Assembly (NCBI RefSeq): GCF_017302975.1
Contig: NZ_JAFIMT010000003.1
Direction: 5' to 3' (one strand)
DNA: 64,000 nt
Source: Corallococcus exiguus
GTDB taxonomy: Bacteria; Myxococcota; Myxococcia; Myxococcales; Myxococcaceae
Shown here: positions 21,324 to 64,000 of the stretch, one piece after another
Layout of the letters: each line of letters opens with the position of its first letter
Position numbering within the stretch: position 1 is the first letter of the stretch
Made by a program: the position numbers and the translations under genes
The notes under the pieces: generated by a model
Seen by the model: the letters and a program-made list of their open reading frames with translations, nothing else
What the model was told of the DNA's origin: nothing
Database searches by the model: none

Positions 21324-21326
21324 GAC

Positions 21327-35234: not shown

Positions 35235-35241
35235 GGCGTCC

Positions 35242-37092: not shown

Positions 37093-37101
37093 GGGTAATC
37101 G

Positions 37102-38274: not shown

Positions 38275-38307
38275 ACTGCCCCCGTTGCAAATGGCTCACA
38301 TGCGAAG

Positions 38308-38532
38308 ATGACATATCCGCGCCACATCCCAAAGCGCGGAGTCGTGGCGCCGATGGAGGACCGATTCTCTCTCTACCTCGTCGTCCAGAAACAGCCTGAT
38401 GGCTCCGTGACGGCATTCATCCGCCCCCAGAGCGGAACTTCTCACCCATTCGGCGCAAGGTGGCCACCGAGCTTAAACGACTGGTGGCTCAGAAGCCGGA
38501 TGCGACGGTGCGCGAGGCATCAGTGGGTATGA
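38308..38532 (+). pseudogene. Decayed internal fragment of a paralog of the serine-hydrolase gene at 41090-42841
   Basis: Nucleotides 38335-38440 align to 41466-41570 at roughly 85% identity (VAPMEDRFSLYLVVQKQPDGSVTAFIR versus VAPLEDRFSLYLVVQKQPDGSVKAFIR). No N- or C-terminal remainder of the gene is present. Confidence 0.65.
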
Positions 38533-38541
38533 TGCACGGCC

Positions 38542-39984
38542 ATGTACCCGAGACGCCGTCTTCTGGCCCGTGGACCGTGGCTGTTTGATCTCAGACCGCA
38601 TCAGCTCACCGTCTTCCACGGTGCCGAAGGCGTGCGCCGGGAGGTCAGTGGAGACGTGCCGAATCCACCGACCGCGCCCGTGGTGCTCGCCGCGCTGGAT
38701 GAAGCAAAGTACGTCTGGGTGGGATGCGGGGATCGGCGTGCCTTCTCCGTGGGGGCGAGCGCTCCCGTCCAGGCCTTTCCGAGGGAGTGCTTCGATCTAA
38801 TCTCTGATGGGAACCGGCTCATCGGAACGGAGGTGGACGGCGCCCTCAAGCTGAGCACCCTCTTCACGACCGATGGGTCCGGGCAGCGATGGGAGACCAT
38901 GACCTTGCTCAAGCCCGTGTCCGCCAGGCACGGGTACGGATATAGCGAGGGGCGCCCCCACCGTCAGTCCCCTGATGGGGCGTTCCTCGACACGAGCCCC
39001 TTTGGCATCACTGTCGTGGAAAAGGGCCGAGGCCGTGTCTACGTGCTTCGCCCGGGCGCGGCTCAGCCAGAGGGAGCGCTCCAGGTGGAGCCGGGCCATG
39101 AGCAGGACATCTGGCGGGCCCTGGCCACTCCTCACGGCGTGCTTCTCCTGCTCGTCATCAACTACCGGCAGACGGTGCTCCTCCACTTCGTGCTCGACGG
39201 CACCTTGCTCGGCTCCATCCCGGCTCAGGACGATGAGGACGATGAGGATGATGAACTGACCTGGGGCGGTGCCGGGGTGTGCGTCCTCGACGCGGACCGG
39301 GCGCTCCTCTTCGTCCAGGACAAGGTCCTCCTGGTGTCCCTGCCCGGGCTCCAGGTGATGGAGACGCTCGCGGGGGAATGGCCCCGCTTCGTGTCCGTGA
39401 CGCCCGCAGGGGCTGATCGGTGGTGGGTGGGCCCCGAGGACAGTGACGCGCTCTTCCTGCTCACCGCGGAGCCCGGACACCCCTTGCGCCTCGACGCCTC
39501 GAACCGTCCGGTGAGCCCGGGCGCGCCGCTCATGCACGTGGGCTACAAGACGCCCGCGATCCACTGGACCGAGTACATTTCGGCGCCGCTGACCGTTTCC
39601 GCTCCCGTGACCGAGACGTGGCGGGCGGTGGTACGCAATGACGGGACCGCGTGTGAGGCGGTGCGGATCCGGGTGTCCGGGGTGCTCGTCGGTGCTCGCG
39701 CGGTGGACGTGAGCGTGCGGTATCGCGGCCAGCCGCTCCCGATGGTGGAGGAGTTCCGCGTGAACGCCGTCGGCGTTACCGCTGGACTGGAGGGAGGGGC
39801 CACCGCGGAGCTGGAGGTGAGCTTCAAGCCTCGGGGCGAGGGCTCAGGACCGCTGACCATCACCGTCGAGCCGTGCTCCTGGCAGTCGCAGGGCAAAGAG
39901 TGGCAGTGGGACAAAGAGGAGCCTCGCGTCCTCGCGGTGACGGGTCATCCAGCATCCGCCCAGTTCCTTCTCACGGTGGAGTAG
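38542..39984 (+). CDS. Hypothetical protein (beta-rich, no signal peptide recognised)
   Basis: Long ORF from an ATG with coding-like composition and an acidic DDEDDEDDE linker. Confidence 0.5.
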   Translation: MYPRRRLLARGPWLFDLRPHQLTVFHGAEGVRREVSGDVPNPPTAPVVLAALDEAKYVWVGCGDRRAFSVGASAPVQAFPRECFDLISDGNRLIGTEVDGALKLSTLFTTDGSGQRWETMTLLKPVSARHGYGYSEGRPHRQSPDGAFLDTSPFGITVVEKGRGRVYVLRPGAAQPEGALQVEPGHEQDIWRALATPHGVLLLLVINYRQTVLLHFVLDGTLLGSIPAQDDEDDEDDELTWGGAGVCVLDADRALLFVQDKVLLVSLPGLQVMETLAGEWPRFVSVTPAGADRWWVGPEDSDALFLLTAEPGHPLRLDASNRPVSPGAPLMHVGYKTPAIHWTEYISAPLTVSAPVTETWRAVVRNDGTACEAVRIRVSGVLVGARAVDVSVRYRGQPLPMVEEFRVNAVGVTAGLEGGATAELEVSFKPRGEGSGPLTITVEPCSWQSQGKEWQWDKEEPRVLAVTGHPASAQFLLTVE

Positions 39985-48950: not shown

Positions 48951-49976
48951 CTAACCCCTCCCCTTCAGCCGGGCCTTGTACTGGGTGTCGAAGTACTGGC
49001 GATAGGCGCCGCTCGTGACGCGCTCCCACCAGGCGCGGTTCTCCATGTACCAGGTCACCGTCTCCTCCAGCCCCTGCTCGAAGGTGTGCTTCGGCTGATA
49101 GCCCAGCTCCGTGCGGATCTTCGTGGGGTCGATGGCGTAGCGGCGGTCATGGCCCGGCCGGTCCGCGACGTACTGGATGAGCGACTCGGGCTTCTTCAAG
49201 AGGCCCAGGATGCCCTTGACGATCTCGATGTTGCGGCGCTCGGAGCCGCCGCCGATGTTGTAGACCTCGCCCGCGCGGCCCTTCTCCAGCGCCACCAGCA
49301 GGCCCTGGCAGTGGTCCTCCACGTGGAGCCAGTCGCGCACGTTGGCGCCGTCGCCGTAGACGGGCAGCGGCTTGTCGTGCAGCGCGTTCACCACCATCAG
49401 CGGGATGAGCTTCTCCGGGAACTGATAGCGGCCGTAGTTGTTCGAGCAGCGCGTCACCACCACGTCCATCTTGAACGTGTGGTGGTAGGCCAGCGCGATC
49501 AGGTCCGAGGACGTCTTGGAGGCCGAGTACGGGCTGGAGGGCTGCAGCGGAGAGGTCTCCGTGAAGGCGCCCGTGGGGCCCAGCGAGCCGTAGACCTCGT
49601 CGGTGGAGACCATCAGGAAACGCTTCACGCCCCGGGCGCGGCAGGCTTCCAAGAGCTGCTGGGTGCCCAGCACGTTGGTGTTGATGAACACCTCCGGGCC
49701 CAGGATGGAGCGGTCCACGTGGCTTTCGGCCGCCAGGTGCATCACCGCGTCGACACCGTGCTGGACGATGAGGTGTTCCACCAGCTCCCGGTTGGCGATG
49801 TCGCCGCGCACGAAGACGTGCTTCGGGTCACCTTCCAGGTCGGCGAGGGTCTCGAGGTTGCCCGCGTACGTGAGCTTGTCGAGGTTGATGATCTTCCAGT
49901 CGGGCCGCTCGCGGCGCAGGTACTTCACCAGATTGGAGCCGATGAAGCCGCAGCCCCCTGTCACCAGGACGTTCAT
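48951..49976 (-). CDS. rmlB: dTDP-glucose 4,6-dehydratase
   Basis: MNVLVTGGCGFIGSN plus YSASK, full-length; recovered as the 3' 342 codons of the 970-aa track ORF. Confidence 0.92.
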   Translation of the reverse strand: MNVLVTGGCGFIGSNLVKYLRRERPDWKIINLDKLTYAGNLETLADLEGDPKHVFVRGDIANRELVEHLIVQHGVDAVMHLAAESHVDRSILGPEVFINTNVLGTQQLLEACRARGVKRFLMVSTDEVYGSLGPTGAFTETSPLQPSSPYSASKTSSDLIALAYHHTFKMDVVVTRCSNNYGRYQFPEKLIPLMVVNALHDKPLPVYGDGANVRDWLHVEDHCQGLLVALEKGRAGEVYNIGGGSERRNIEIVKGILGLLKKPESLIQYVADRPGHDRRYAIDPTKIRTELGYQPKHTFEQGLEETVTWYMENRAWWERVTSGAYRQYFDTQYKARLKGRG

Positions 49977-50090
49977 TGACAAGCCACCACTCGCACTTCG
50001 AGAGAAAGCGCCCTCCGTAGCGGAGGGAAGGATCCCCGTCAAGGCAAGCGCGCGACCACTTGTGGCCGGTCCGGGCCAGGGGTAAATGCC

Positions 50091-51737
50091 ATGCCCAACG
50101 TGAGCCTCTGGAACAGCAAGCGAGGGACCGCGTCCTCGAGCGCCGGAGCAGTCCACCAGCTCGTGCCGCGGCTGGCCTGGGGCGACGCCGTGGGCAACCA
50201 GGTGCGCTACCTGCGAAACCTCCTGCGCGGATGGGGATACGCGTCGGAGATCTACGCCGAGCAGTGGGACGAGGCGTGTCGCGACGAGGTGCGCCCCGCC
50301 CTCGACTACGCGCGCGACGCGGGCCGGGACACCGCGCTGCTCGTCCACCACAGCTTCGAGTCGCGGCTGGTGCCGCTGGTGGCCAAGGCGAAGGGCCGCA
50401 AGGCGCTGCTGTACCACAACGTCACGCCCGAACGGTTCTTCGAGGGCACGGACCGCCACGTCGCCCGCGGCTGCATGCTGGCGCGCGAGGAGCTGCTCCA
50501 GCTGCGCGAGCACGTGACGCACGCCTGGGCGTACTCGCACTTCAGCGTGGAGGAGCTGTCCGCCGCGGGCTACCCGGACGCGAGCGTCCTGCCCTTCGCG
50601 GTGGACTGGAACGCGTTCAACGTGCCGCCGGACCCGGCCCTGCGCGAGCAGGTGGAGGACGGGTGCGCCAACGTGCTCTTCGTGGGCCGCACGGTGCCCA
50701 GCAAGCGGTTGGAGGACGTGCTGCGCGTCTTCACCGCCTACCAGCGCCTGTACCAGCCCAAGAGCCGGCTGCTGGTGGCGGGCACGCTCTACAGCAGCGC
50801 GCCCTATGACGCGTCCGTGCTGGCGCTGCGCGAGCAGCTGGGCCCGGATCGCGTGGTGTTCCTGGGCCGGGTGGACGCCGCCCAGCTGTCCGCGTGCTTC
50901 GCGTCCGCCACCGCGTACCTCTCCATGAGCCGCCACGAGGGCTTCGGCGTGCCGCTGCTGGAGGCCATGTACCGGGGCGTGCCGGTGGTGGCCTACGGCG
51001 CCGCGGCGGTGCCGGAGACCATGGGCGGCGCGGGCCTCACCACCCTGTCGGACGACCCCGCGCAGGTTGCGGGGCTGCTGGCGGTGCTGGAGCGAGACCC
51101 CGCCCTGCGCTCGCGGGTGGTGGAGGCGCAGCGTCAGCGACTGGCGTCCCTGGACCAGCAGTCCGTGGCCCAGCGGGTGCGCGAGGCGCTCATGCCCTTC
51201 CTCCAGGGGAATGCGTCCCCGGCCCGTCCGCCCGCCTCGCCCGCCGTCACCGTGGTGTGCCCGGGCTTCGACGCCGCGCCGGATGCGCCCATGTCCCAAC
51301 TGGCGCGCGCGGTGGTGGACCGGCTGCCGGACGCGAGCCTGTGGACGGTGCGCCGTCAGGTGATGCCCCTGCAGCTGGCCCCGAGCGATGAGCGCGACGG
51401 CGTGACGCGGGTGCGGCGCTTCACGCCGGACGAGCCGTGCTTCGGGTTGGACGGGGTCAGTCCGCCGTCGTCGTCGCTGGAGACGGGCGTGCGGTGCGCC
51501 CCGGGGCCGTTGCTGTTCGCGGGGGCCGGTGAAGAGGTGGCCCGGCGCACGGTGTCCCGGCTGCCGCCGGACATGCGCGTCGCGGGCATCTGGGAGCCCC
51601 GCCGCGCGCCGGACGCGGGCGTCAAACAGGTCCTGGGAAAGAGGCAGTGGGAGCTCACCCCGGGGCGCGACCTGACGTCGCTGGCGGCGGAGCTGGCAAG
51701 AGAGCTGGACGTGGGAGGACACCCGCATGCGCGCTGA
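50091..51737 (+). CDS. Glycosyltransferase family 1 (GT4-like) with approximately 180-aa C-terminal extension
   Basis: GT-B C-domain motifs (FVGRTVPSKR, EGFGVPLLEAMYRGVPVV). Confidence 0.8.
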   Translation: MPNVSLWNSKRGTASSSAGAVHQLVPRLAWGDAVGNQVRYLRNLLRGWGYASEIYAEQWDEACRDEVRPALDYARDAGRDTALLVHHSFESRLVPLVAKAKGRKALLYHNVTPERFFEGTDRHVARGCMLAREELLQLREHVTHAWAYSHFSVEELSAAGYPDASVLPFAVDWNAFNVPPDPALREQVEDGCANVLFVGRTVPSKRLEDVLRVFTAYQRLYQPKSRLLVAGTLYSSAPYDASVLALREQLGPDRVVFLGRVDAAQLSACFASATAYLSMSRHEGFGVPLLEAMYRGVPVVAYGAAAVPETMGGAGLTTLSDDPAQVAGLLAVLERDPALRSRVVEAQRQRLASLDQQSVAQRVREALMPFLQGNASPARPPASPAVTVVCPGFDAAPDAPMSQLARAVVDRLPDASLWTVRRQVMPLQLAPSDERDGVTRVRRFTPDEPCFGLDGVSPPSSSLETGVRCAPGPLLFAGAGEEVARRTVSRLPPDMRVAGIWEPRRAPDAGVKQVLGKRQWELTPGRDLTSLAAELARELDVGGHPHAR

Positions 51738-52266
51738 GGACCTCATCACCGGCGACCCCACCGTGAAGGCGGTGCTGGAGTCCCTGGAGCGGCTGCCCAC
51801 GCCCGAGCCCGAGAAGGTAGAGGCGCTGCGCCGACGCCTCGCCGCCACCCAGGGCCCGGCCACCAGCCCCGCGTGGCCCCCGTTCCTGGAGGGCGCGCGG
51901 CTGAAGCGCGACGCGCGCTACGCGGACCCGCCTTCGTCCCACCGGCCCGTGGTGGGGCCCGCGCTGGTGATGGCCAAGCGCGCCTTCCGGCTGGCGTTCC
52001 AGCCCTTCATCAACGAGGCGCTCCGGCGGCAGGTGGAGTTCAACGAGGCCATCCTGGACGCGCTCGCGCTCATCCATGAGCACCAGCGTGTCCAGGCGCG
52101 CACGCAGTCCCTGTGGCGCCAGGAGGTGGAGCGCCAGCTGGAGCAGCTGACGTCACGCCCGCCTGCCGCGACGCCGGAGCCTTCGCCGAAGCCGGCACCA
52201 GAGCCGTCGCCGGAGCCCGCGGGGGAACCGCCGCGCCGAGGGCCCTCGCGGCGACGGGGCCGCTAG
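51727..52266 (+). CDS. Hypothetical protein with Pro-rich C-terminus
   Basis: An ORF that overlaps the GT1 3' end by 11 nt. It has no motif, and its coding status is uncertain. Confidence 0.35.
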   Translation: MRAEDLITGDPTVKAVLESLERLPTPEPEKVEALRRRLAATQGPATSPAWPPFLEGARLKRDARYADPPSSHRPVVGPALVMAKRAFRLAFQPFINEALRRQVEFNEAILDALALIHEHQRVQARTQSLWRQEVERQLEQLTSRPPAATPEPSPKPAPEPSPEPAGEPPRRGPSRRRGR

Positions 52267-54416: not shown

Positions 54417-54443
54417 GGGCCCACCGGGCCCCATCCGTCCTCC

Positions 54444-55841
54444 ATGCTTCCGTCTTCACCGCCCCCGTCCCCGCTGCGTCCATTCTTCATCGCGCCCGTC
54501 GTGGCCTTCCTCGTCGTGGCCGCCGTGCTGGGCGCGGTGCTGAGCTTCCTCACGCCCCCGTTCCAGGTGGCGGACGAGCCCGCGCACTTCTACCGCGCGT
54601 ACCAGGTCTCCGAGGGACAGCTGACGGCCACGCGGATCCCGGTGGGGGACGCGGGCGGGCAGCTCCCGCGCAGCATCGTGCGGGTGGCGCAGGAGGTGTC
54701 CGACGGCGTGGGCGGCCATCCCGACGTGCGCCAGGACCGGCAACGCCTGAGCGACGCGATGCACGCGGCGCTGGCGCCCCAGGACACCCAGGAGTGGCGC
54801 TTCGCCGCGTCCGCCATCTACTTCCCGCTGGTCTACTTCCCGCAGTCGCTGGGCATGGTGCCCGCGCGGCTGTTGGAGGCGTCCCCGGTGGCGGTGCTGT
54901 GGGCGGGCCGGCTGGGCAACGTGCTGGTGGCGCTGCTGCTCACCGCGCTGGCGCTGCGCCTGATGCCCTTCCAGCGGTGGGCCTTCGCGCTGCTGGCGCT
55001 CACGCCCATGGTGCTCTTCCAGCGCGCGTCGGTGTCCGCGGACCCCATCACGATGTCGGCGTGCCTGCTGCTGGTGGCGCTGTCGCTGCACTACACCTTC
55101 GCGCACCCGGGCCCGCTGGGCGCGAAGCAGCTGGGGCTGCTGCTGGCGAGCGCGGTGTTCGTGGCGCTGTGCAAGCAGGCCTACCTTCCGCTGTCGCTGG
55201 TGTTCCTGCTGCTGCCGCTCACCCGGCTGGGGACGCGCGGCCGCTACGCCCTGGCCCTGGCCGCCATCGTCGCCGTGCCCGCGCTGCTCCAGTTCGCGTG
55301 GTCCTCCACCGTGCGGGACATCTTCCGCCCCAGCGAGGTGGTGGCGCAGGTGGCCCACATCCGCGCGCACCCCTTCCAGGTGCTGGGCGTGCTGGTGAGT
55401 GACTTCTGGAGGCGGCTGCCGGACTTCCTGCATCAGGGCGGCGGCGTGCTGGGCTGGCTGGACACCCCGGTGCCCCGCCCTGCCCTCTTCGCCCTGGCCG
55501 CGTTGCTCCTGGGAGTGATGGCGCTGGACGCCGACGGGGCCGCGCCGAAGGTGGGCTGGCGCGAGCGCGCGGTGGCGCTGGGGGTGGCGGTGGCGGGTGT
55601 GCTGGCCATCCAGGCCATGCTGTACCTGGCGTGGACGGCGCCGGGCGCGAACCACGTGGACGGGGTGCAGGGCCGCTACCTGTTGCCCTACACGCCGCTG
55701 CTGGTGGTGGCGCTGGCCCCGCCCGCCTGGGCACCGCGCGCGCTGACGCGCTTCAAGCCAGTGCTCATCGCCTGCTTCATCCTGCTCACCGCGGCGGTGA
55801 CGCTCACCACGGTGTACCAGCGCTACTACGGCCCCGCGTAG
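54444..55841 (+). CDS. DUF2142-family polytopic membrane protein (GT-C-like candidate glycosyltransferase/polymer-modifying enzyme)
   Basis: At least 10 TM helices and an early periplasmic loop with acidic residues (VADEPAHFYRAY), consistent with DUF2142/GT-C-like topology. Confidence 0.6.
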   Translation: MLPSSPPPSPLRPFFIAPVVAFLVVAAVLGAVLSFLTPPFQVADEPAHFYRAYQVSEGQLTATRIPVGDAGGQLPRSIVRVAQEVSDGVGGHPDVRQDRQRLSDAMHAALAPQDTQEWRFAASAIYFPLVYFPQSLGMVPARLLEASPVAVLWAGRLGNVLVALLLTALALRLMPFQRWAFALLALTPMVLFQRASVSADPITMSACLLLVALSLHYTFAHPGPLGAKQLGLLLASAVFVALCKQAYLPLSLVFLLLPLTRLGTRGRYALALAAIVAVPALLQFAWSSTVRDIFRPSEVVAQVAHIRAHPFQVLGVLVSDFWRRLPDFLHQGGGVLGWLDTPVPRPALFALAALLLGVMALDADGAAPKVGWRERAVALGVAVAGVLAIQAMLYLAWTAPGANHVDGVQGRYLLPYTPLLVVALAPPAWAPRALTRFKPVLIACFILLTAAVTLTTVYQRYYGPA

Positions 55842-55904: not shown

Positions 55905-58900
55905 TCAGCGACTGACTGCCGTGGCGCTGGCGTCTTCGCGGGCCGCGCTTCGAGCGGGCGGATTCACCAGACCGGACAGCAGCCCGTGGAGCTCCTTGGC
56001 CTGGGTCTCGTAGTCGCGCACGGTGGTGCGCTGGGAGCTCGGGGCGCGCGACAGACGCTCCGGGTGGGCCACCAGGTCGCGCAGCACGCGGCGGAAGCCG
56101 TCGGCGTCCGTCATGTCCACGACGTTGCCGTTGACGCCCTCCACGATGTCCTCGCTGACGCCGCCTGACGCCGTGGTGACCACCCACACGTTACGGGCCA
56201 TGGCCTCGCGCACCGTCAGGCCGAAGCTCTCCTTGCACTGCGAGGGCATCAGCAGCACGTCCACCCCGTCGAAGAAGGCGTCCATCCCGTCCTGATCATA
56301 CGGACGCACCACCTCCACCTGCCCCTTCACCTTCCATTCCTTCGCGTCGATGGAGGCCGACCCCATGCGCAGCTGGATGTCGGTCATCTTCAGGACCCAG
56401 CCGGACTCCGGCACCGACTCCAGGATGTCCTTGAGCCAGAAGTACCCCTTGTGCACCGCGTGGCCGCCCAGGTAGGCGAAGCGCACGGGGGCGTTGGCGG
56501 GGCGCGGGGCGCGCGCACGCGTGGGCAGCAGCACGCCGTTCTTGTTCACGACGATGCGCTCCGGCGCGACGCCGTTGGCGATGTAGAGCTGGCGCTGGAA
56601 CTCGCTGGGCGCCATCAGCAGGGCCGCGCCGTCCAGCACCTTGCGCAGGGCGAACGTGCGCTTGAAGGTGTAGCGCGAGTCCGGCACGCACTTGGTGCAC
56701 ACGCGCAGGTCGATGCCCTTCTGGCCGCAGTACGTGGCGTCCTCGCGGACCATGAACTGCCGCTCGCACAGCCACCACGCGTCATGCACGGTGATGGTGT
56801 ACGGGATGCCCTCCGCGGCGCACGCCGTGGCGAGCGTGGAGGTCAAGAGCTGGATGGAGTGGAAGTGCACCACGTCCGGGCGCACCGCCTTGAGCACCTG
56901 GGTGAAGGTCTCCCCCATGCGCGGGTTCTGGTACTCCTGGGCGCGGTCGGTGAGGGCCGGCACCTGGGTGGCGATGACCGGCAGGCCCAGCGCCTCGTAG
57001 CGCACCACCGAGTAGGCGGGCAGCGGCGAGTTCAGGATGCCGGTGAACACGGTGACGTCGCAGCCCTCCGCCTTCAGCTGGTGCGCCAGCTGCTCCGCCA
57101 CGACGGTCGCCCCGCCGAAGCTCAAGGGCGCGAAGAGGATGTTGGCCTCCAGGACCTTCAGGCGCGGAGGCGGCGCGGGCGGCAGGTGCTGGAGGATGGG
57201 CTGGAGCCGCTCCGTGGCCACCACCGCCGGGTGGTAGCGCGCCATCACGCTGCGGTGGGCCTCCTCGCCCATGCGCTTGCGCAGTGACGCGTCCTGCACC
57301 AGCGCGGACAGCCCGGACTCCCACTCCTCACGGGTGGTGGCGACGAAGCCGTTGCGGCCGTGGTCGATGATCTCCCGGAACGGCCCGGAGCCGGAGCACA
57401 CCGCGGGCACGCGGAAGATGGACGCCTCGATGAACTTGATGTTGCTCTTGGCGTCGTTGAAGACCGTCGTCTCCAGCGGCGCGATGGAGATCTGCCAGGA
57501 CGCAAGCGCGCGCAGGTAGTCGTCCGCGTCCAGGAACGGGATGCGGAAGACGCGGTCGGAGAAGCGCTCGAAGCCCGCCGGCAGCTCCAGGAAGCCGTGG
57601 ATGGCCAGGCGCACGTTCGGATGGCGCTCCATCACCGCGAGGATGGCGTCCGCGGCGATGGCGAAGTCTGCGTCGTGCGTGCGGGTGCCGCTGCCGTAGC
57701 CGATGGTGACCGTGTCCGCGTCCACTGCGGGCGGGCGCGCTTCCATCTCCCGGGCCAGCTCCAGGATGCCGTCGTCCAGGCAGTTCTCGACGACGTAGAC
57801 CTTGCCGGAGATGACGCGGGCCATCTGCTCCGCGATGGTGGGCGTGCTGGCGATGGCGTGCTCACACAGGCTGAGAGCCTTGCGGTAGAGCTTCGCGCCG
57901 TTGAGCAGCAGCTCGCGCTCGTTCTCCGGCAGCCGCTGCACGTTGGTGTTCTTCTGGTACTCCTCCACGTCGAAGATGAGGTCGTCGACGTCGAAGAAGT
58001 GCGGGAGGCCCAGGCGCTTCGTTTCCGCCAGCAGCTCCTCCACGCCAGGGAACGCGGGCACCCGGTAGTAGATGACCAGGCCGTGGAACTGGAGCGCGGC
58101 CTTGCACTCCTCGTGGTCGTTCCAGCGCAGGACGGTGACGTCGTACCCGAGCCGGTGGAACATGGCGACCTTCTGATCCACGCGGTAGCGCTTGCACTGG
58201 GGCAGCGACAGCTCCGCGATGATCAGGATGCGCCGGCCCAGGCTGGCCTGGGAGAGCTGCGTCAGCGGCGCGGTCCACGGAGCCGGAGGCGCGAGCGGCG
58301 CGCTCGGGGCCACGACCGCGGCGATGGGGGCGGCGGGTGCGACAGGGGCGGCCGGCTTGAGGGCGGCCTTGGCGGCGCGCAGCGCCTTGAGCGCGCCCTG
58401 CTTCGCGGGCAGCTTGATCAGCTTCGCGCCCACCTTGTGCAGGGTGCCCTTGCTCTTCTGGTAGAGGTGGCCGCGCTTCGTGCCGGGGGGCAGCACGCGC
58501 TCACGCATGGACCAGTAACGGTTGATGGCCTTCCACGCGAGGCTTCCGTTGATGTGCGCCAGCTCCGAGCCCTGGCGCGCCACGTGCGCATCCAGTTCGT
58601 AGATGCGGGCGTTCTTGCGGCCCAGCTCCTCCTGGAGCATCCGCTGGGCCAGGCCCTGCCGCGCGAGCCGGCCTTCGAACTCGCGCAGGGTGCTGGCGGT
58701 GTCGCGCGCCGCTTCACGGGCGGCGTCCAGCTCCGCCTGGAGCTGCTGCGCCTGGCGCGCATGGTCCGCGGCCTGCTGTTCCTTCTGTCCGTAGGCGTCG
58801 CGCAGGTGCTGCCGGTGCAGCAGGAGCGTCAGTCGCCCGCCCAGCGTGGCGAAGGCCTGCCGCACGTGTTCACGCTCCGCGTCCCGGGTGCTCGTCAGGG

Positions 58901-59522
58901 CAAGCATCCCTTCCGGCTGCTCCGGGCCCACGGCGAGCACGCCCAGACCGAAGCCGTGCTCGAACTCGAAGGAGGGATACTGGCCCTTGAGTTCCTCCCA
59001 CAGTTGCCAGACGCCGAAGTTGCGCTCGTGCACGTGGGTGTCGTGGAAGAGGATGACGCCGCGCGCGCTCATCTTGGGGCGCCAGTGCTCGAAGTCCGCC
59101 TTCACCTGGGCGTATTCGTGGCAGCCGTCGATGTGGAGCAGGTCGATGGAGCCGTCCGCGAACTGGCCGAGGGCCTCGTCGAAGGTCACCTGGTGCAGTT
59201 GGGAGAACCGGCTGTAGAGCGGGTCATGGTGCGCGCGCAGGTCCGCGAGCACGTCCGGCCCGTAGAAGCCCGCGTGCGGGTCACCCTGCCAGGTGTCCAC
59301 CGCGTGGCAGCGCGTCTCCAGCTTCAGCGCGTCCACCGCCTGGCAGAACGCGGAGTAGGACACGCCGGTGTGCGCGCCCAGCTCCACCAGCGTCGAGGGA
59401 CGCAGCAGGTCCACCAGGAACATCGCGAACGGGACGTGCTCCACCCAGGCTGAGGAGGCCAGCAGCCGCAGGGGCTGCGTGAGGCAGAGGGGGTGTTCCA
59501 GGGGATTGAGCTGTGGATGCAT
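55905..59522 (-). CDS. 1200-aa fusion: class I SAM methyltransferase + coiled-coil spacer + two GT-B (GT4-like) glycosyltransferase domains
   Basis: The N-terminus has a TylF/CmcI-like MTase (HIDGCHEY...ILFHDT). A roughly 130-aa heptad-rich region follows ([29 protein letters not shown]...). Two GT-B modules with E-x7-E-type motifs come after ([12 protein letters not shown]; the second is around [12 protein letters not shown]). A TTG at 59561 is an alternative start. Confidence 0.75.
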
Positions 59523-59672: not shown

Positions 59673-62189
59673 CTACGGTGTCTGGAGAAAGCCGAGGCGC
59701 GGATGTCCGGTGGGGTCGGTCCGTCCCGCGCGGACCCACGCTTCACGGAGCCGGTCGGCGTCGTGGGTGGCCTCGGGTGCGTCGTCCTGGGAATGGGTGC
59801 GCACGAGTCGCGCATGGGGAGCGTAGAGGACGCGCAGCCCGGCTTCGCTCGCGCGCAGGCACAGGTCCACGCCCCGGGCCTCGTCGGACGTGAAGGCCGC
59901 GTCCCAACCTCCGAGCGACTCCAGGACCTCGCGGCGGATCATCGCGCAGGCACTGGAGACGGCGCGCACGTCCCGCGGCCAATGCGAGCCGCCGAATGCG
60001 CCGAGCGTGGGATCGAACATCCCCGCGAAGGGACGCAGCACCCGGCCCTCGGCGTCGAAGCGCAGCCCGGCCTCCAGCACCAGGCCCCAGGGAGAGACGA
60101 TGCGCGCGCCCACCACGCCGACGCCGGGGCGCGAAGCCTGCGACGCGAGTTCCCGCAGCCACCCCGGTCCGGTCGGAAGCGTGCCTGCCTCCAGGACGAG
60201 GATGAGTTCGCCCCGGGCCTCGCGCAGCAACTGGTTCGCCACGGCGCCCGGGGTCGCGGCCGCGTCTACCTGGACGCGGATGGCGTTGCCGGTGGAGGAA
60301 GCGGCTGGATACGAAACAGGGACGCTGACCTCCACGTCCAGGTCGTCCGTGAAGGCGAGGAGCGCCGTGAGCTCGTCCTCGGTGGGCGCCTCCGAGAGCA
60401 GCACGGACACCCGGGGACGGCCCACGAGCGGGTGGCGGATCCGGTACAGACCTGGCGAGACCGTCTCCGCGGAGCCGCCCTCCCCCATTCGCACCAGATG
60501 CTCCGCCACGGCCCTGCGGCCTGCTTCGGAGGCCGCGGGCTTCGCGCTCGCGTCCGTGGCCGTGGAGCCGGGCAGCGTCCTCCAGTGGTAGAGCACGCGG
60601 GGGATGTGCTCGAAGCGCCCAGTGCGCTCCATCAGGCGAAGCAGCAGGTCGTGGTCCTGCGCTCCCTCGAAGCCAGGGCGGATACCGCCCACCTCGCGCA
60701 GCAGCGATGTGCGCACCACGAGGAAGTGGCACACGTAGTTCACCGCGCGCAGCAACTCCGGAGACAGAGAGGGCTTCAGGTATGGCGCGAAGCGCAGCCC
60801 CTGCGCGTCCACCTTGTCCTCATCCGAGTAGACGACGTCCGCGGCTGGCGCCTCACCAAGCCGCAGCACGACCTCGGCCAGCGCGTGCGGCGCCAGCAGG
60901 TCGTCGTGGTCGAGGAAGCCTACGTACTCGCCGGTGGCCAGAGCCAGCGCGGCGTTGGTCGCGCGTGCGATGCCCTGGTTCGACTCCAACCGCTCGAAGC
61001 GAATCCGCGCGTCGCCGGCCGCGGCCTCTCGCAACGTGTCCGCCACCGCCGACGAGCGCGACCCGTCGTCGACGATGCACAGTTCCCAGTGCGGATACAC
61101 CTGAGCACGCACGGACGCGACGCATGCGCGGAGGACGTCCACCGGCGTCTCCCATGCGGGCGTGACCAGACTGATCCGCGGCCGACGCTCCAGCCGTGCC
61201 AGCGCGGCGGTCGCGTCGCGGACCTCGAGGGCTTCTCGCTCCAGGGCGTCGCGCGTGTACCCGACTGGCGCGGGCAAAAGCACGGCCGGACGGGCCACGC
61301 CCAGGAGGTGCCGCAACAGTCGGACGGTCGCGTGATTGAAGGCGACCTGCCGCCGCCACAGCTCACGCCACAGGGGCAGGCCCACTGCGCTAGCCTCTTG
61401 CGACAACACGTCGCAGCGAGCCTCCAGCGCGTCCAGTGCCTCGGCGGCGCCTTCGGTCCGGAGAGGCCATCCAGGTCTGGATAGCAGGGCCACGACCGCG
61501 AGGTTCCAGGCCCGCTGCGCCTCCAGCCCCGGCACGGAGGGAAGCCAGCGGCCCACCGCGCCCACGGGCCGCGGATCCGCGAGTCGCCCGAGTTCCTCGC
61601 GGGCCAGCTCCGGCAGTGTCCGCTCCGGTTGCCTGATCAACGCCCTCAGCTGCAGGTCGAAGCGCAGCTGGCGGTCCAGCACCCAGCGCTGCAAGGGCGA
61701 AAGCCCCCGCGTCCCCAAACGTTTGGCGGCGGTGATGACCGGGCCCCAGCGCGCGCGGTGCGACCGAGGCACGTCGAAGCCCAACACCTCGACGAAGAAA
61801 TCGCGCGGCGGATGCGCCCCGCTGCCGGGAGGTCCCGCTGTGGCCTGCGCGGCGGAGGATGACTTCCGGTCGCCCGGAGCCAACGTCGAGTCCTGCGCGG
61901 CGGAGGATGACTTCCGGTAGCCCGGAGCCAACGTCGAGTCCTGCGCGGCGGTGGATGACTTCCGGTCGCCCGGAGCCAACGTCGAGTCCTGCGCGGCGGA
62001 GGATGACTTCCGGTAGCCCGGAGCCAACGTCGAGTCCTGCGCGGCGGTGGATGGATTCGGGTCGGCAGGAGCCAACGTCGTGACCTCCGCAACGGAGGAC
62101 GACTTCCGGTCGGCCGCGTCCAAAGTCGCGGCCTCGACGCCCGGCGTCGCCCGCGAGCCACGTGGGCCGTCACTGTCGGCGGTACCCAT
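59673..62189 (-). CDS. Tandem double-GT2 glycosyltransferase with repeat-containing N-terminal region
   Basis: Two GT-A modules are present (ISLVTPAW...IVDDGS...DHDD; RVSVLLS...). An N-terminal low-complexity region is encoded by the 48-bp repeats. The ATG is at MGTADSD, 4 nt after the upstream stop. Confidence 0.7.
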   Translation of the reverse strand: MGTADSDGPRGSRATPGVEAATLDAADRKSSSVAEVTTLAPADPNPSTAAQDSTLAPGYRKSSSAAQDSTLAPGDRKSSTAAQDSTLAPGYRKSSSAAQDSTLAPGDRKSSSAAQATAGPPGSGAHPPRDFFVEVLGFDVPRSHRARWGPVITAAKRLGTRGLSPLQRWVLDRQLRFDLQLRALIRQPERTLPELAREELGRLADPRPVGAVGRWLPSVPGLEAQRAWNLAVVALLSRPGWPLRTEGAAEALDALEARCDVLSQEASAVGLPLWRELWRRQVAFNHATVRLLRHLLGVARPAVLLPAPVGYTRDALEREALEVRDATAALARLERRPRISLVTPAWETPVDVLRACVASVRAQVYPHWELCIVDDGSRSSAVADTLREAAAGDARIRFERLESNQGIARATNAALALATGEYVGFLDHDDLLAPHALAEVVLRLGEAPAADVVYSDEDKVDAQGLRFAPYLKPSLSPELLRAVNYVCHFLVVRTSLLREVGGIRPGFEGAQDHDLLLRLMERTGRFEHIPRVLYHWRTLPGSTATDASAKPAASEAGRRAVAEHLVRMGEGGSAETVSPGLYRIRHPLVGRPRVSVLLSEAPTEDELTALLAFTDDLDVEVSVPVSYPAASSTGNAIRVQVDAAATPGAVANQLLREARGELILVLEAGTLPTGPGWLRELASQASRPGVGVVGARIVSPWGLVLEAGLRFDAEGRVLRPFAGMFDPTLGAFGGSHWPRDVRAVSSACAMIRREVLESLGGWDAAFTSDEARGVDLCLRASEAGLRVLYAPHARLVRTHSQDDAPEATHDADRLREAWVRAGRTDPTGHPRLGFLQTP
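61838..62085. repeat. 48-bp tandem repeat, 4 near-perfect + about 2 degenerate copies (unit ctgcgcggcggaggatgacttccggtcgcccggagccaacgtcgagtc)
   Basis: Directly visible. Copies alternate the variants tcgccc/tagccc and gag/gtg, so there is also 96-bp super-periodicity. It encodes (AAQDSTLAPG[DY]RKSSS)n in the minus-strand GT2 frame. Confidence 0.85.
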
Positions 62190-62193
62190 CGTC

Positions 62194-63615
62194 TCAGCGC
62201 CCGCTGCCGGATTTGAGCCGGTTCGCCAGGGCCTTGAGCGTGCCGTGGACCCAGGGGATGCCGTGGACGCGGGCATTCAGCATGTCCACCACCCGGTGGC
62301 GGAACTCCCTGGCCTGGAGCGTCTCTTCGCGGATCCGCGACACGGCATCCACCCAGGCATCCAGCGGGCGCACCAGCCAGGTCCCCGGCGCCACGGCGAC
62401 GGCCGGTGGCTCGCGCGGACCGCGTACCTCGCACGAGGCGATGCCGCCCAGGAACACCGGAGGAAACAGCGCCCCCATCCGCGCGGGCAGGTCCCCGAGC
62501 CCCGACTCCATCGCCACCGGGAAGGGCCCGATGCGACTCCGGTCGATCACCATCGCGTGGACGAGCTCCGGGTGGACCACCAGGTGCTCCACCTCCAGCC
62601 GCTCCCCCAGCGGGAACGGCACCTTCGCGCGCACATACGGAGGGGTCCCCTCACCGGACGCCCACTCGGTGCGGAACGCCCGCGCCAACGCCCAGGCCTC
62701 GCGGCCCGTCTGGAGCGCACGCACCAACTCCACGTAGTGCCGCGGGTACACCAGACACCGCGCGTCCACGAACGCCAGGTACTGTCCCCGGGCCTCGCGC
62801 ACGGCCTCCGCGTACAGAGCCCCCGAGGGCGCGCGCACGGTGCGCGCCTGGAACGACCCCAGCCTGCCGTAGCGCTCCAGCGCCGCCTCCGCAGCGGACA
62901 AGTCCACGCCCTCATGCGCCGCGAGCAGCAGCTCCAGGGGCTGCTGCTCCTGACAGGCCAGCGCGAAGAGGGCCTCGTCGAGCGCCGCGTCCTGCGTCCC
63001 CGGCTCCACCGTGACGACGACACTGAGCAGCCCCGCCACCGGCGCGCGCACGGGCCCATCCGGCACCGCGACGTAGAGCCCCTCCTCCACCTGCGTGGAC
63101 GGCGCCAGCTGGGCCAGCAACGCCCGCAGCGCCTGAGCGGTGTCCTCCGCCAGCGCCGTGCCCCCAGACACGCACGGCACCACCTCACGGTGCGCCACGC
63201 GGTAGCCAGCCTCGGCCAGCCGCCGCAGCATCCGCTGTTCGGAGAGCCCCGCGCGCACCGGCGCTTCACCCGTCAACGCGCCCAGCAACGCCCGCGCCGA
63301 ACCGGCGTTGCGCAGGCTGAACACCAGCTCCGCCCCCGGTGCCTCGCGCCGCAGCGCCTCCAGCCCCGCCTCCAGTACCCGTTCGACGGCGTCGCCCTCC
63401 AGCACCACGAGCGTCGGCGTGGGCCCCTTGCCCCGCTTCCACTCCGGCCCCGGCAGCTCCCGCACGGAGCCGCCCCGAGCCCGCAGGGCCTCCGCCAGCG
63501 CAGGCGACGCGCCCACCAGGCACACCGCCGCGCCCGCGTGCGCACGCGACAGCACCAGCTCCATCCACCGCGCGGACGCGGCGGACGGAGGCGCCTCTTC
63601 GGACAGAGCGTTCAC
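62194..63615 (-). CDS. Hypothetical protein, possibly a GT-A-like/nucleotide-sugar-binding protein
   Basis: Its GTG start overlaps the upstream stop (GTGA), and it lies in the operon between GT2 genes. YLAFVDARCLVYPRHY resembles a DxD region, but assignment is weak. Confidence 0.45.
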   Translation of the reverse strand: MNALSEEAPPSAASARWMELVLSRAHAGAAVCLVGASPALAEALRARGGSVRELPGPEWKRGKGPTPTLVVLEGDAVERVLEAGLEALRREAPGAELVFSLRNAGSARALLGALTGEAPVRAGLSEQRMLRRLAEAGYRVAHREVVPCVSGGTALAEDTAQALRALLAQLAPSTQVEEGLYVAVPDGPVRAPVAGLLSVVVTVEPGTQDAALDEALFALACQEQQPLELLLAAHEGVDLSAAEAALERYGRLGSFQARTVRAPSGALYAEAVREARGQYLAFVDARCLVYPRHYVELVRALQTGREAWALARAFRTEWASGEGTPPYVRAKVPFPLGERLEVEHLVVHPELVHAMVIDRSRIGPFPVAMESGLGDLPARMGALFPPVFLGGIASCEVRGPREPPAVAVAPGTWLVRPLDAWVDAVSRIREETLQAREFRHRVVDMLNARVHGIPWVHGTLKALANRLKSGSGR

Positions 63616-64000
63616 CAGCGCCTCCGAGCGAACTCCAGATGGTGCCTGAAGTCCGCGATGCCCGCGAGCCGCCGCCCGGGCTTGAGGATGTCGGGCGTCT
63701 GGAATGGCTCGCCGCCCAGCTGCGCGTACTCACGCAGGCGGGCGTTCGTGAAGGCCGCGTCACCGTACTTCGCCCCGAGCAGGGCCGCGCTGCGGCGGAC
63801 CATCCGCTCGCGCACCGGGCTCTCTTCCCGGGTGACGGTGTAGTGGTGCACCAGCGCGGAGGGCGCCACCCGGACGGACAGCCCGGAGGCCCTCGCCCGC
63901 CACGACAGGTCCACGTCCTCGCAATACATGAAGAAGCGCTCGTCGAAGCCGCCCACCGTCGCGTGCAACTTCTTCGTCACGAGCAGCACGCAGCCGCTGC
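63612..64000 (-). CDS. GT2-family glycosyltransferase, C-terminal part (N-terminus beyond window end)
   Basis: GGFDERFFMYCEDVDLSWRARASG is the classic GT2 acceptor/ED motif. The minus-strand ORF is open to the window edge. Confidence 0.75.
   Translation of the reverse strand, partial: SGCVLLVTKKLHATVGGFDERFFMYCEDVDLSWRARASGLSVRVAPSALVHHYTVTREESPVRERMVRRSAALLGAKYGDAAFTNARLREYAQLGGEPFQTPDILKPGRRLAGIADFRHHLEFARRRW

What the first reader, a model, noticed from the sequence alone, without database searches (positions are those of the whole stretch)
61838..62085. Near-perfect 48-bp tandem repeats in the 5' end of a double-GT2 polysaccharide gene (potential length-variation/contingency site)
Four almost identical 48-bp units plus about 2 degenerate ones are present, with alternating single-base variants giving a 96-bp super-period. 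Identity this high implies recent expansion or ongoing slipped-strand/recombinational copy-number change.

In the gene's frame the repeats add (AAQDSTLAPG[D/Y]RKSSS)n to the N-terminus of a glycosyltransferase. There is no Met between the repeats and the first GT-A domain, so they are either translated as a variable linker or lie in a 5' leader whose length varies. Either way it is a candidate for strain-to-strain or phase-like variation of a surface-polysaccharide enzyme.
Basis: seen in the sequence. Interest (0 to 1): 0.5.

Follow-up and report, generated by a model that had tools for sequence, protein, structure and literature searches.

The report
Variable 16-residue repeat in glycosyltransferase tail
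A real, recently expanded 48-bp in-frame tandem repeat lengthens the floppy N-terminal tail of a probable O-antigen glycosyltransferase in Corallococcus; its copy number differs between strains (0 to 9), but it cannot switch the gene on or off, so it is an ordinary coding minisatellite in an unusual host protein.

Summary
On the minus strand, 61854-62045 holds four 48-bp units that are 46-48/48 identical. They are flanked by two older degenerate units (62046-62141) and a relic unit (61806-61853).

The units lie in frame in a gene at 59673-62189. Each encodes 16 residues, AAQDSTLAPG[Y/D]RKSS[S/T]. The gene's ATG sits 4 nt after the stop codon of the upstream gene. AlphaFold2 predicts residues 1-129 as disordered, followed by a helical domain and two GT-A domains.

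The window matches a Corallococcus exiguus protein. Syntenic relatives place the gene in a cluster of wzt (with Wzt_C), GT2, a 473-aa gene, this gene, and a methyltransferase/GT4 gene. This is an ABC-transporter-type O-antigen cluster like M. xanthus wzm-wzt-wbgA.

Twelve Corallococcus alleles carry 0, 1, 2, 3, 4, 6 or 9 units. C. aberystwythensis has an independent 96-bp array at the same site. Every allele, including at least five indels that are not whole units, keeps the frame from the conserved ATG, so the tail is translated.

Strain-to-strain length variation is therefore supported. Phase or contingency switching is not: the unit is 16 codons, and isolates with identical or near-identical gene bodies share the same allele. 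The peptide is weakly constrained apart from a TL..DRK.SS core. Any functional effect is untested. This is a new member of a known kind, of modest interest.

The parts
61854..62045 (-). Four near-identical 48-bp units (u4-u7) encoding AAQDSTLAPG[Y/D]RKSS[S/T]. They form two 96-bp blocks that differ by 1 nt.
   Evidence: 46-48 of 48 identical.
62046..62141 (-). Two older, diverged units: u2 GVEAATLDAADRKSSS and u3 VAEVTTLAPADPNPST. Both are shared with other C. exiguus strains. u3 carries GGAGG, then 8 nt, then TTG at 62075, the start used in the public annotation of the identical protein P0134.
61806..61853 (-). Degenerate terminal unit (AAQATAGPPGSGAHPP). It is conserved as [AS]A[QRK]A.SG.PG.RAHPP in all alleles that carry repeats. 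It precedes the conserved domain start RDFFVEVLGFDVP.
62142..62189 (-). Head of the tail (MGTADSDGPRGSRATP), with the ATG at 62189-62187, 4 nt (GACG) after the TGA of the upstream gene. The ATG and the MGT[AP]DS head are conserved in the Corallococcus loci examined (MGA and MSA variants occur).
59673..62189 (-). Glycosyltransferase gene (838 aa). Residues 1-129 form the disordered tail, about 149-330 a helical domain, 339-590 a GT-A/GT2 domain with invariant DD, DHDD and EDK motifs, and 593-830 a second GT-A domain with E-A-G at the DXD-equivalent position.
62194..63615 (-). Upstream gene in the same apparent operon (473 aa, weak GT2-like match). Its stop is 4 nt before the ATG of the repeat-bearing gene.
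   Evidence: synteny.
55905..59522 (-). Downstream gene (about 1205 aa): Methyltransf_24, a helical Q/A/E/R-rich segment, Glyco_trans_1_2, then GT4/GT1. This is the probable chain terminator/polymerase partner.
   Evidence: gene models; architecture compared with K. pneumoniae O7 ORF6.
63612..64000 (-). 3' part of a 283-aa GT2 gene. In syntenic relatives wzt (ABC_tran + Wzt_C) lies just beyond the window edge.

Best explanation
The feature is an in-frame coding minisatellite (VNTR). A 48-bp (16-codon) unit sits inside the N-terminal, intrinsically disordered tail of a WbgA/RfbC-like glycosyltransferase with two GT-A domains. The gene belongs to an ABC-transporter-dependent O-antigen-type cluster of Corallococcus exiguus.

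Translation starts at the ATG at 62189, coupled to termination of the upstream gene, and runs through the whole array.

Copy number changes by replication slippage or unequal homologous recombination between units. In this strain an ancestral 4-unit array of diverged units had its third unit (AAQD.TL.P..RK.SS) amplified. The unit first became a Tyr/Asp pair. A 96-bp duplication of that pair then followed, and one point change came after it.

Because the unit is a whole number of codons, the changes only lengthen or shorten a flexible Ser/Ala/Pro/Thr/Asp-rich spacer ahead of the conserved helical domain. They do not switch the gene on or off.

**Shown:** the anatomy, the maintained frame, between-strain polymorphism, predicted disorder and the cluster context.

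**Inferred:** the mutational mechanism, the start codon, and that the phenotypic effect is small (spacer length) or neutral.
For: **Array anatomy:**

**Translation from the ATG:**
- All 10 Corallococcus loci read at the DNA level have an ATG 3-4 nt after the upstream stop, in frame with the body. Tails run from 24 to 178 aa.
- At least five indels are not whole units, and all are multiples of 3: head deletions in L085, L087 and L081, a 30-aa deletion in L084, and a 9-aa deletion in L086. The chance of this without a coding constraint is about (1/3)^5.
- The further-upstream ATG at 62276 is not conserved; L081 and L001 read TLES and TRES there.
- GC3 is the highest of the three codon positions in the gene frame (0.82-0.86).

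**Polymorphism:** 0 units (P0123, P0124, P0127, P0132), 1 (P0131, P0135, P0003, P0147), 2 (P0121, P0140), 3 (P0126/L085), 4 (P0128, P0130), 6 (window = P0134) and 9 (P0148). C. aberystwythensis has an independent 96-bp x 4 array at the same site.

**Recency:** core units differ by 0-2 of 48 nt, against about 5% divergence between strains in the gene body. Window units u2 and u3 are orthologous to L080 u2 and u3, and the amplified unit corresponds to L080 u4.

**Disorder:** pLDDT is 25-31 with no secondary structure for residues 1-129, against a mean above 85 for the rest. Composition is A/S/P/T/G/D-rich, with GRAVY -0.71.

**Enzyme and cluster:** Pfam GT2 hits; dual GT-A polymerases PmHS2 and K4CP are the top fold and sequence matches; synteny with wzt carrying Wzt_C; M. 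xanthus wzm-wzt-wbgA-sgmR-wbgB as the model.

**No RNA signal:** fold z-score -1.06; no Rfam hit.
Against: - The ATG at 62189 has almost no Shine-Dalgarno pairing (-3.4 kcal/mol). The in-frame TTG at 62075 has a strong one (-10.2), and NCBI used it as the start of the identical protein.
- Codon-position entropy across 23 distinct units is flat (0.50/0.62/0.55). Nonsynonymous codon differences outnumber synonymous ones 4.5:1. The substitution pattern does not by itself show purifying selection on a peptide.
- A rare TTG Leu codon is invariant in all units. This could reflect a constraint at the nucleotide level.
- There is no expression, proteomic or LPS phenotype data.
- The exact copy number in a 192-bp near-identical stretch could be mis-assembled if the source assembly used short reads.
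Confidence: 0.75

Rival explanations
1. Alternative start or leader. Translation of the glycosyltransferase begins mainly at an internal TTG. The best candidate is 62075 in unit u3, with GGAGG 8 nt upstream. Part of the region (62076-62189), or in the extreme all of the array, would then be an intercistronic leader whose length varies.
For: - Anti-Shine-Dalgarno duplex energy is -10.2 kcal/mol for TTG 62075 against -3.4 for ATG 62189.
- Public annotation of the identical protein P0134 starts at this TTG (MAPADPNPST). Several C. coralloides records also start at a unit's TTG.
- Every unit in every strain keeps a TTG codon even though TTG is only 6.7% of Leu codons nearby.
- Units in Corallococcus sp. 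M7 carry GAGGAGG, then 8 nt, then TTG.
Against: - The ATG and the head MGT[AP]DS[DE]G are conserved, and every indel upstream of the TTGs keeps the frame in 10 of 10 loci.
- The 0-unit allele (L084) has no internal TTG before the conserved domain and must start at the ATG.
- The four amplified units have only CAGGAC upstream of their TTG (-4.0 kcal/mol).
- Even a start at 62075 leaves all four near-identical units translated.
- No start codon lies between the last unit's TTG (61883) and the conserved FVEVLGFDVP.
Confidence: 0.15
2. Functional tether or ruler. The repeat is a multivalent short linear motif (T-L-x-x-x-D-R-K-x-S-S) or a length-setting spacer. It positions the polymerase relative to the neighbouring methyltransferase/GT4 terminator protein or the Wzm/Wzt exporter. 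Copy number would then tune O-antigen chain length or amount between strains, in the manner of the H. pylori FutA/FutB heptad repeats.
For: - A TL..DRK.SS core is retained in all units across strains that differ by 5-11% in the gene body. A DRK core is retained even in the independently formed 32-aa unit of C. aberystwythensis.
- The site has expanded repeatedly in the genus.
- The gene sits in an ABC-transporter O-antigen-type cluster, where chain length is set by the geometry of polymerase-terminator complexes.
- There is precedent for a repeat-number ruler in LPS fucosyltransferases.
Against: - The tail is predicted disordered, not a rigid coiled coil.
- Alleles with 0 units exist in four isolates and appear tolerated.
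- More distant Corallococcus and other genera lack the tail entirely.
- The substitution pattern is near-neutral.
- No other protein with the motif was found in a search of 5.8 billion sequences (weak, because that search sees only cluster representatives).
Confidence: 0.1
3. Contingency locus. The array mutates at high frequency within clonal populations and gives reversible phase-like variation of the surface polysaccharide.
For: - Near-identical units are good substrates for slippage or recombination.
- Copy number differs between strains.
- Glycosyltransferase genes are classic contingency loci in other bacteria (own knowledge; for the H. pylori fut C-tracts).
Against: - The period of 48 is a multiple of 3, so there is no frameshift.
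- The array is not in a promoter: no sigma-70-like site was found and the gene is coupled to the one upstream.
- Alleles are shared by isolates whose gene bodies differ by 0-25 residues. No pair with identical bodies has different copy numbers.
- The same 2-unit allele was recovered from three independent assemblies.
Confidence: 0.05
4. The copy number is an assembly artefact. The array exists, but the count of four near-identical units is wrong, collapsed or expanded by a short-read assembler.
For: - The near-identical stretch is 192 bp with a 96-bp super-period, and u4 is identical to u6. Reads of 150 bp cannot span it.
- Many Corallococcus genomes are Illumina drafts, as their contig names show.
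Against: - The identical protein sequence is in NCBI on a 1.99-Mb contig.
- The alternating Tyr/Asp variant and the single Thr variant give unique anchors.
- Diverged multi-unit arrays in other strains (4 and 9 units) cannot be collapse artefacts.
Confidence: 0.1

Closest known systems
In-frame coding VNTRs/minisatellites of bacterial proteins, such as the S. aureus spa X-region 24-bp repeats, the clf/sdr Ser-Asp repeats and the group B Streptococcus alpha C protein repeats (own knowledge)
   Same: Head-to-tail units that are a whole number of codons. They encode a low-complexity or spacer segment. Copy number is polymorphic between strains through slippage or unequal recombination. Units are homogenised within an array.
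   Different: Those examples are secreted or wall-anchored surface proteins in which the repeats span the envelope or are antigenic. Here the host is a predicted cytoplasmic-face glycosyltransferase, and the repeats form its extreme N-terminal tail.
Helicobacter pylori FutA/FutB alpha-1,3/4-fucosyltransferase heptad repeats, the 'enzymatic/molecular ruler' (PMC2583950, read)
   Same: In-frame tandem repeats inside an LPS O-antigen glycosyltransferase, with a number that varies among strains and sub-isolates (2-17 heptads).
   Different: The Fut repeats are 7-residue units at the C-terminus that have been proposed to form a dimerisation domain. Their number correlates experimentally with the size of the fucosylated O-chains, and the same genes also carry a frameshifting poly-C tract. 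The Corallococcus units are 16 residues, Pro/Gly/Ser-rich, predicted disordered and N-terminal. There is no phenotype data and no frameshifting tract.
Coiled-coil molecular rulers of ABC-transporter-dependent O-antigen assembly: E. coli O9a / K. pneumoniae O3 WbdD with the WbdA polymerase, K. pneumoniae O12 WbbB and O7 ORF6 (PMC11231755; PMC3482155 listed)
   Same: The pathway type matches: wzt with Wzt_C, multi-GT polymerase proteins, and a neighbouring methyltransferase-plus-GT protein. In that pathway the length of a protein spacer sets glycan chain length, and polymerase modules are recruited into a complex.
   Different: The known rulers are rigid coiled coils in the terminator protein. 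They are not reported as tandem DNA repeats with strain-variable copy number. The variable element here is a disordered tail on a polymerase-type protein.
Myxococcus xanthus WbgA (RfbC, MXAN_4621) in the wzm-wzt-wbgA-sgmR-wbgB O-antigen locus
   Same: Homologous helical N-domain plus two GT2 domains. Myxococcus homologues of about 1240-1270 aa align at 39-40% identity over 83-84% of the query. A Stigmatella homologue is named RfbC. The gene lies next to wzt.
   Different: The Myxococcus-type proteins carry an extra C-terminal WsaF/GT1 region and an extra N-terminal helical segment. They show no 16-residue repeat tail. Orthology to MXAN_4621 itself was not tested directly.
Phase-variable LOS/LPS glycosyltransferase genes, such as Neisseria lgtA/C/G and Haemophilus lic2A/lgtC (own knowledge), and the H. 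pylori fut poly-C tracts
   Same: Repeats in the 5' part of a surface-glycan glycosyltransferase gene.
   Different: Those repeats are 1-5 nt units that shift the reading frame and switch expression. A 48-bp unit cannot do this.

Membership tests
In-frame coding VNTR / minisatellite | Head-to-tail tandem copies of one unit, well above chance | tested here: met
   TRF period 48, 5.7 copies, score 434. The unit occurs 4 times with up to 1 mismatch, against 0 expected.
In-frame coding VNTR / minisatellite | Unit length is a multiple of 3 and the reading frame is kept through the array in all alleles | tested here: met
   48 bp is 16 codons. All 10 loci are open from the conserved ATG to the conserved domain, and all indels that are not whole units are multiples of 3.
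In-frame coding VNTR / minisatellite | Copy number is polymorphic among strains | tested here: met
   0, 1, 2, 3, 4, 6 and 9 units among Corallococcus isolates.
In-frame coding VNTR / minisatellite | The array is actually translated | tested here: inconclusive
   Comparative evidence is strong (conserved ATG, maintained frame). No proteomic or ribosome data exist, and a competing TTG start at 62075 has the better Shine-Dalgarno pairing.
Contingency (phase-variable) locus | A change in repeat number shifts the frame or promoter spacing and switches expression on or off | tested here: not met
   The unit is 48 bp and all alleles are in frame. The array lies inside the ORF, 4 nt-coupled to the upstream gene, and no promoter-like site was found.
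Contingency (phase-variable) locus | High-frequency, reversible change within clonal populations | not testable with these tools
   Indirect evidence only. Isolates with identical or near-identical gene bodies share the same allele, and the same allele was recovered in three assemblies.
GT2 (GT-A fold) glycosyltransferase | Match to the GT2 profile above the curated threshold | tested here: met
   PF00535 scores 103.9 bits against a cut-off of 23.3 at residues 340-455. PF13632 scores 40 bits against 27 at residues 744-820.
GT2 (GT-A fold) glycosyltransferase | DXD and acidic catalytic motifs | tested here: met
   In domain 1, D374-D375, D427-H-D429-D430 and D456-E457-D458 are invariant in 40 homologues.
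Dual-GT-A bifunctional polymerase (K4CP / PmHS2 type) | Two catalytically competent GT-A domains in one chain | tested here: inconclusive
   Two GT-A folds are predicted, and the top Foldseek hits are 8vh8 and 2z86. The DXD-equivalent of domain 2 is E667-A-G and is not conserved. TM-scores are low (0.23-0.38) because the domains are arranged differently.
ABC-transporter-dependent O-antigen cluster (Wzm/Wzt) | Adjacent wzt encoding ABC_tran plus the Wzt_C glycan-cap-binding domain | tested here: met
   Found in all syntenic Corallococcus loci fetched, two genes upstream of the 473-aa gene. In the window itself wzt lies beyond position 64000.
ABC-transporter-dependent O-antigen cluster (Wzm/Wzt) | The product is LPS O-antigen | not testable with these tools
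   Inferred from homology to Myxococcus/Stigmatella WbgA/RfbC-type proteins and the M. xanthus model.
H. pylori Fut-type repeat ruler | Heptad repeats proposed to form a dimerisation stalk | tested here: not met
   The unit is 16 residues and rich in P/G/S, with no predicted helix and pLDDT 25-31.
H. pylori Fut-type repeat ruler | Repeat number correlates with O-chain size | not testable with these tools
   Needs LPS gels of isogenic copy-number variants.

The most novel reading that the evidence does not exclude
The 16-residue unit is a functional, multivalent linear motif (TL..DRK.SS) or an entropic spacer. Its copy number would set how the dual-GT-A polymerase docks onto the neighbouring methyltransferase/GT4 terminator or the Wzm/Wzt exporter. 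Natural copy-number variation (0-9 units) would then tune O-antigen chain length or density between Corallococcus strains. That would be a disordered, DNA-repeat-encoded counterpart of the coiled-coil rulers of enterobacterial O-antigen assembly, with possible consequences for kin recognition, phage sensitivity or predation.
Probability: 0.08. Interest if true: 0.6.

Novelty: new member of a known kind. Interest (0 to 1): 0.3.

Why it matters
If the tail length had a phenotype, it would be a simple natural handle on O-antigen chain-length control in myxobacteria. LPS O-antigen matters there for gliding motility and development. It would also be a second example, after the H. pylori fucosyltransferases, of repeat-number tuning of an LPS enzyme.

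As it stands, the practical value is more modest:
- It is a length-polymorphic marker that could type Corallococcus exiguus/coralloides strains.
- It shows that public annotations of this gene use at least three different start codons.
- It shows that a repeat in the 5' part of a glycosyltransferase gene is not automatically a phase-variation switch.

Tried and rejected
- **RNA element in a leader.** The 411-nt region folds no better than shuffles (z = -1.06). Rfam at gathering thresholds finds nothing in the whole window. Rejected.
- **Promoter-spacing repeat.** No sigma-70-like site lies in 59-64 kb, and the gene is 4 nt from the upstream stop. Rejected. The scan does not cover non-sigma-70 promoters.
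- **Longer ORF from ATG 62276** (867 aa, used in some GenBank records). The ATG is not conserved in L081 or L001, and the ORF would overlap the upstream gene by 83 nt. Rejected.
- **Gene on the opposite strand or in another frame.** ORFs are open in several frames, as expected at 69% GC. None has homologues or conserved starts. Not pursued further.
- **Search for the repeat peptide elsewhere.** A search of the 5.8-billion protein set with the tail returned nothing at E <= 0.01. That search sees only cluster representatives, so it is a weak negative.
- **Metagenome scan** for two consecutive units (GACCGGAAGNNNTCNTCC-N15-ACGTTGG) gave 0 hits.
- **The look-up of encoding contigs** for P0134 and P0131 returned no record. 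The window's own strain could not be re-fetched from another assembly.
- **Selection test on codon positions.** The result was flat. It neither proves nor disproves translation, so the argument rests on frame conservation instead.
- **Literature.** Searches for tandem repeats in Corallococcus or in O-antigen glycosyltransferases found no description of this array.
Full report
**1. Observation**

Tandem Repeats Finder reports a single strong array at 61844-62116: period 48, 5.7 copies, 89% matches, no indels, score 434. It is the only near-perfect long-period repeat in the window. The repeat finder gives six copies at exact 48-bp spacing.

Read on the minus strand in the phase of the gene, the array has these parts:
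- Four core units at 61998-62045, 61950-61997, 61902-61949 and 61854-61901, encoding AAQDSTLAPG[Y/D]RKSS[S/T].
- Two diverged units 5' of them: 62094-62141 (GVEAATLDAADRKSSS) and 62046-62093 (VAEVTTLAPADPNPST).
- A relic unit 3' of them: 61806-61853 (AAQATAGPPGSGAHPP).

Core units match each other at 46-48 of 48 positions. The first and third are identical, and the two 96-bp blocks differ by one base. The unit with up to 3 mismatches occurs four times, against 0.00 expected in shuffles.

**2. The gene**

The ORF on the minus strand ends at 59673. The longest ATG-started ORF begins at 62276, but it would overlap the upstream gene by 83 nt. That ATG is not conserved in related genomes.

An ATG at 62189 lies 4 nt (GACG) after the TGA of the upstream 473-aa gene. 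It gives an 838-aa protein.

Pfam places GT2 (PF00535, 1e-29) at residues 340-455 and Glyco_trans_2_3 at 744-820. NCBIfam gives only sub-threshold GT2-type hits.

An AlphaFold2 model built on 40 homologues has mean pLDDT 80.5. Residues 1-129 have pLDDT 25-31 and no secondary structure. A helical domain covers about 149-330, and two GT-A domains cover 339-590 and 593-830.

The best structural and sequence matches in the PDB are the dual-GT-A polymerases heparosan synthase 2 and chondroitin polymerase K4CP.

Domain 1 has invariant DD, DHDD and EDK motifs. The DXD-equivalent of domain 2 is E-A-G and is not conserved.

**3. Organism and locus**

The closest proteins are Corallococcus glycosyltransferases. 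P0134 (C. exiguus, MBN8471219.1 / WP_206883466.1) is identical to the window protein from residue 39 onward.

In every syntenic Corallococcus locus fetched, the order is wzt (ABC_tran + Wzt_C), a 283-aa GT2, the 473-aa gene, this gene, and a roughly 1205-aa Methyltransf_24/GT4 protein. The window ends inside the 283-aa GT2 gene.

More distant homologues include a Stigmatella protein named RfbC. They also include Myxococcus proteins of about 1240-1270 aa with an added WsaF/GT1 part. In M. xanthus, O-antigen is made by the ABC-transporter pathway, encoded by wzm-wzt-wbgA-sgmR-wbgB.

The downstream protein has a methyltransferase, a helical Q/A/E/R-rich segment and then GT modules. This has the same layout as K. 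pneumoniae O7 ORF6, a terminator-ruler-polymerase protein. That resemblance is by architecture only.

**4. Comparison among strains**

Cluster members of the top hits, together with DNA of ten loci, give the tail from the ATG to the conserved motif VLGFDVP.

| Units | Alleles |
|---|---|
| 0 | P0123, P0124, P0127, P0132 (tail MGTADSDGPRGSRETHPPRD...) |
| 1 | P0131, P0135, P0003, P0147, L086 |
| 2 | P0121, P0140 |
| 3 | L085 |
| 4 | P0128, P0130 |
| 6 | the window |
| 9 | Corallococcus sp. M7, P0148 |

C. aberystwythensis has a different array at the same site, with a 96-bp (32-residue) unit in four copies.

C. praedator, C. terminator, Pyxidicoccus and other genera have only 12-30 residues before the conserved motif.

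Window units u2 and u3 are orthologous to units 2 and 3 of the 4-unit allele in L080. The amplified unit corresponds to L080 unit 4, and L080 unit 5 is absent from the window.

Gene bodies of the C. exiguus-group strains differ by 2-6%. The amplified units differ by 0-4%, and the 96-bp blocks by about 1%. The last duplication is therefore younger than the split from every sampled strain.

**5. Is the array translated?**

Evidence for translation:
- All ten loci have an ATG 3-4 nt after the upstream stop and in frame with the body.
- The head MGT[AP]DS[DE]G is conserved.
- At least five indels that are not whole units are all multiples of three.
- The 0-unit allele has no other possible start before the conserved domain.
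- GC3 is the highest of the three codon positions in this frame.

Evidence against, or neutral:
- The ATG has almost no Shine-Dalgarno pairing (-3.4 kcal/mol). TTG 62075 has -10.2 and is the annotated start of P0134.
- Variation across 23 distinct units is spread equally over codon positions (0.50/0.62/0.55).
- Nonsynonymous codon differences outnumber synonymous ones 1737 to 386.

The peptide is thus weakly constrained apart from a TL..DRK.SS core. Even with the TTG start, all four near-identical units are inside the protein. No start codon lies between the last unit's TTG (61883) and the conserved motif.

**6. Is it a contingency locus?**

The unit is 16 codons, so no frameshift is possible. 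The array is inside the ORF and not in a promoter.

Isolates with identical bodies (P0121/P0129 and P0131/P0001) have identical tails. So do isolates with slightly different bodies (P0128/P0130, 12 differences; the 0-unit group, 4-25 differences). The 2-unit allele was found in three independent assemblies.

Copy number therefore changes on roughly the time scale of 1-3% protein divergence. Within-clone instability could not be tested.

**7. Other readings tested**

The RNA of the region is not unusually structured (z = -1.06), and Rfam finds nothing. Searching the tail against the large protein set found no other protein with the motif, and a metagenome scan for two adjacent units found nothing. 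Both are weak negatives. Literature searches found no description of this array.

**8. Mechanism**

- *Shown:* an in-frame 48-bp array in a predicted disordered N-terminal tail, polymorphic in copy number, and recently amplified in this strain by a two-unit (96-bp) duplication.
- *Inferred:* slippage or unequal recombination as the mutational process; initiation at the coupled ATG; and a role as a passive flexible spacer whose length is close to neutral.
- *The more interesting alternative:* tail length or motif valency may tune assembly of the polymerase-terminator-exporter complex and hence O-antigen chain length. This has a precedent in the H. pylori FutA/FutB heptad repeats. It also fits the logic of the coiled-coil rulers of ABC-transporter O-antigen systems. 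But the tail is disordered, dispensable in natural 0-unit alleles and absent from other genera.

**9. Unexplained**

The Leu codon is TTG in all 23 distinct units, although TTG is only 6.7% of Leu codons in the neighbouring genes. Some units have a strong Shine-Dalgarno-like GAGG(AGG) 8 nt upstream of it. Internal initiation, a rare-codon pause or simple descent cannot be told apart here.

**10. Verdict**

Noticed in passing
window 22321-22672 (+), inside ORF 21324-23072: A second in-frame tandem repeat: 87 bp x 4.0, 83% matches, rich in GACGGCGAC. It lies in a 582-aa protein with thrombospondin type 3 repeats and a C-terminal OmpA domain. It looks like a structural calcium-binding-type repeat rather than a young VNTR.
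   Followed up: partly
window about 31000-39000: This stretch has lower G+C (0.60-0.64 against a window mean of 0.686). It encodes a DNA/RNA non-specific endonuclease (31117-32052 +), a 1061-aa STAND-type NTPase with AAA_16/NACHT (32049-35234 -) and two trypsin-like peptidase proteins (35242-37092 - and 37102-38274 -). It may be an acquired defence-type island.
   Followed up: partly
window 55905-59522 (-): The downstream neighbour is a protein of about 1205 aa. It has an N-terminal Methyltransf_24 domain, a Q/A/E/R-rich helical segment (roughly residues 240-340 of the ORF), and then Glyco_trans_1_2 and GT4/GT1 modules. The layout matches K. pneumoniae O7 ORF6 (methyltransferase terminator, coiled-coil ruler, GT modules). 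The coiled coil was judged by eye only.
   Followed up: partly
window 62075, 62189 and 62276; proteins P0001, P0131, P0134, P0002, P0004: Public annotations of this one gene use at least three kinds of start: the far-upstream ATG (MPASTASP...), the coupled ATG (MGTADSDG...), and internal TTG codons of repeat units or later. Database protein lengths (628-882 aa) therefore mix annotation choice with real copy-number differences.
   Followed up: yes
L006 6101-6492 (C. aberystwythensis): An independent array sits at the same site. Its unit is 96 bp (32 residues, for example PGHRDDMDMTDRKSSHGAPVASGDADGRAPPM) in about 4 copies at 76% matches. The duplicated block includes the GRAHPP/RD segment that lies outside the 48-bp unit of the other species. 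The site has therefore expanded more than once in the genus.
   Followed up: partly
L081 about 3037-3468 (Corallococcus sp. M7): Nine 48-bp units that match each other at 39-47 of 48 positions. Each contains an in-frame ATG and GAGGAGG 8 nt upstream of the unit's TTG. The units resemble one another more than they resemble units of other strains, which indicates concerted evolution.
   Followed up: partly
window 61854-62141 and units in L080, L081, L082, L085: The rare Leu codon TTG is invariant in 23 of 23 distinct units, although it is only 6.7% of Leu codons in the neighbouring genes. The A-ending codon after AAG (TCA/CCA/GCA/CAA) varies at its first base rather than its third.
   Followed up: partly
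window protein residues 664-669 (about 60183-60200, -): The second GT-A domain has E667-A-G where a DXD motif would be expected. That position is not conserved among 40 homologues (E/D/N/H/Q, then x, then G/D). The domain may be non-canonical or non-catalytic.
   Followed up: partly
proteins P0124, P0123 and P0126: The 0-unit allele P0124 has a gene body closer to the 3-unit allele P0126 (11 residue differences) than to the other 0-unit alleles (25 differences). This suggests mosaic alleles produced by recombination within the gene.
   Followed up: no
window 54417-55841 (+) and 48951-51917 (-): A DUF2142 membrane protein (1e-68) lies nearby, as does an ORF whose C-terminal 300 residues are an NDP-sugar 4,6-dehydratase/epimerase domain. 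Both fit a glycan-biosynthesis neighbourhood extending leftwards from the cluster.
   Followed up: no
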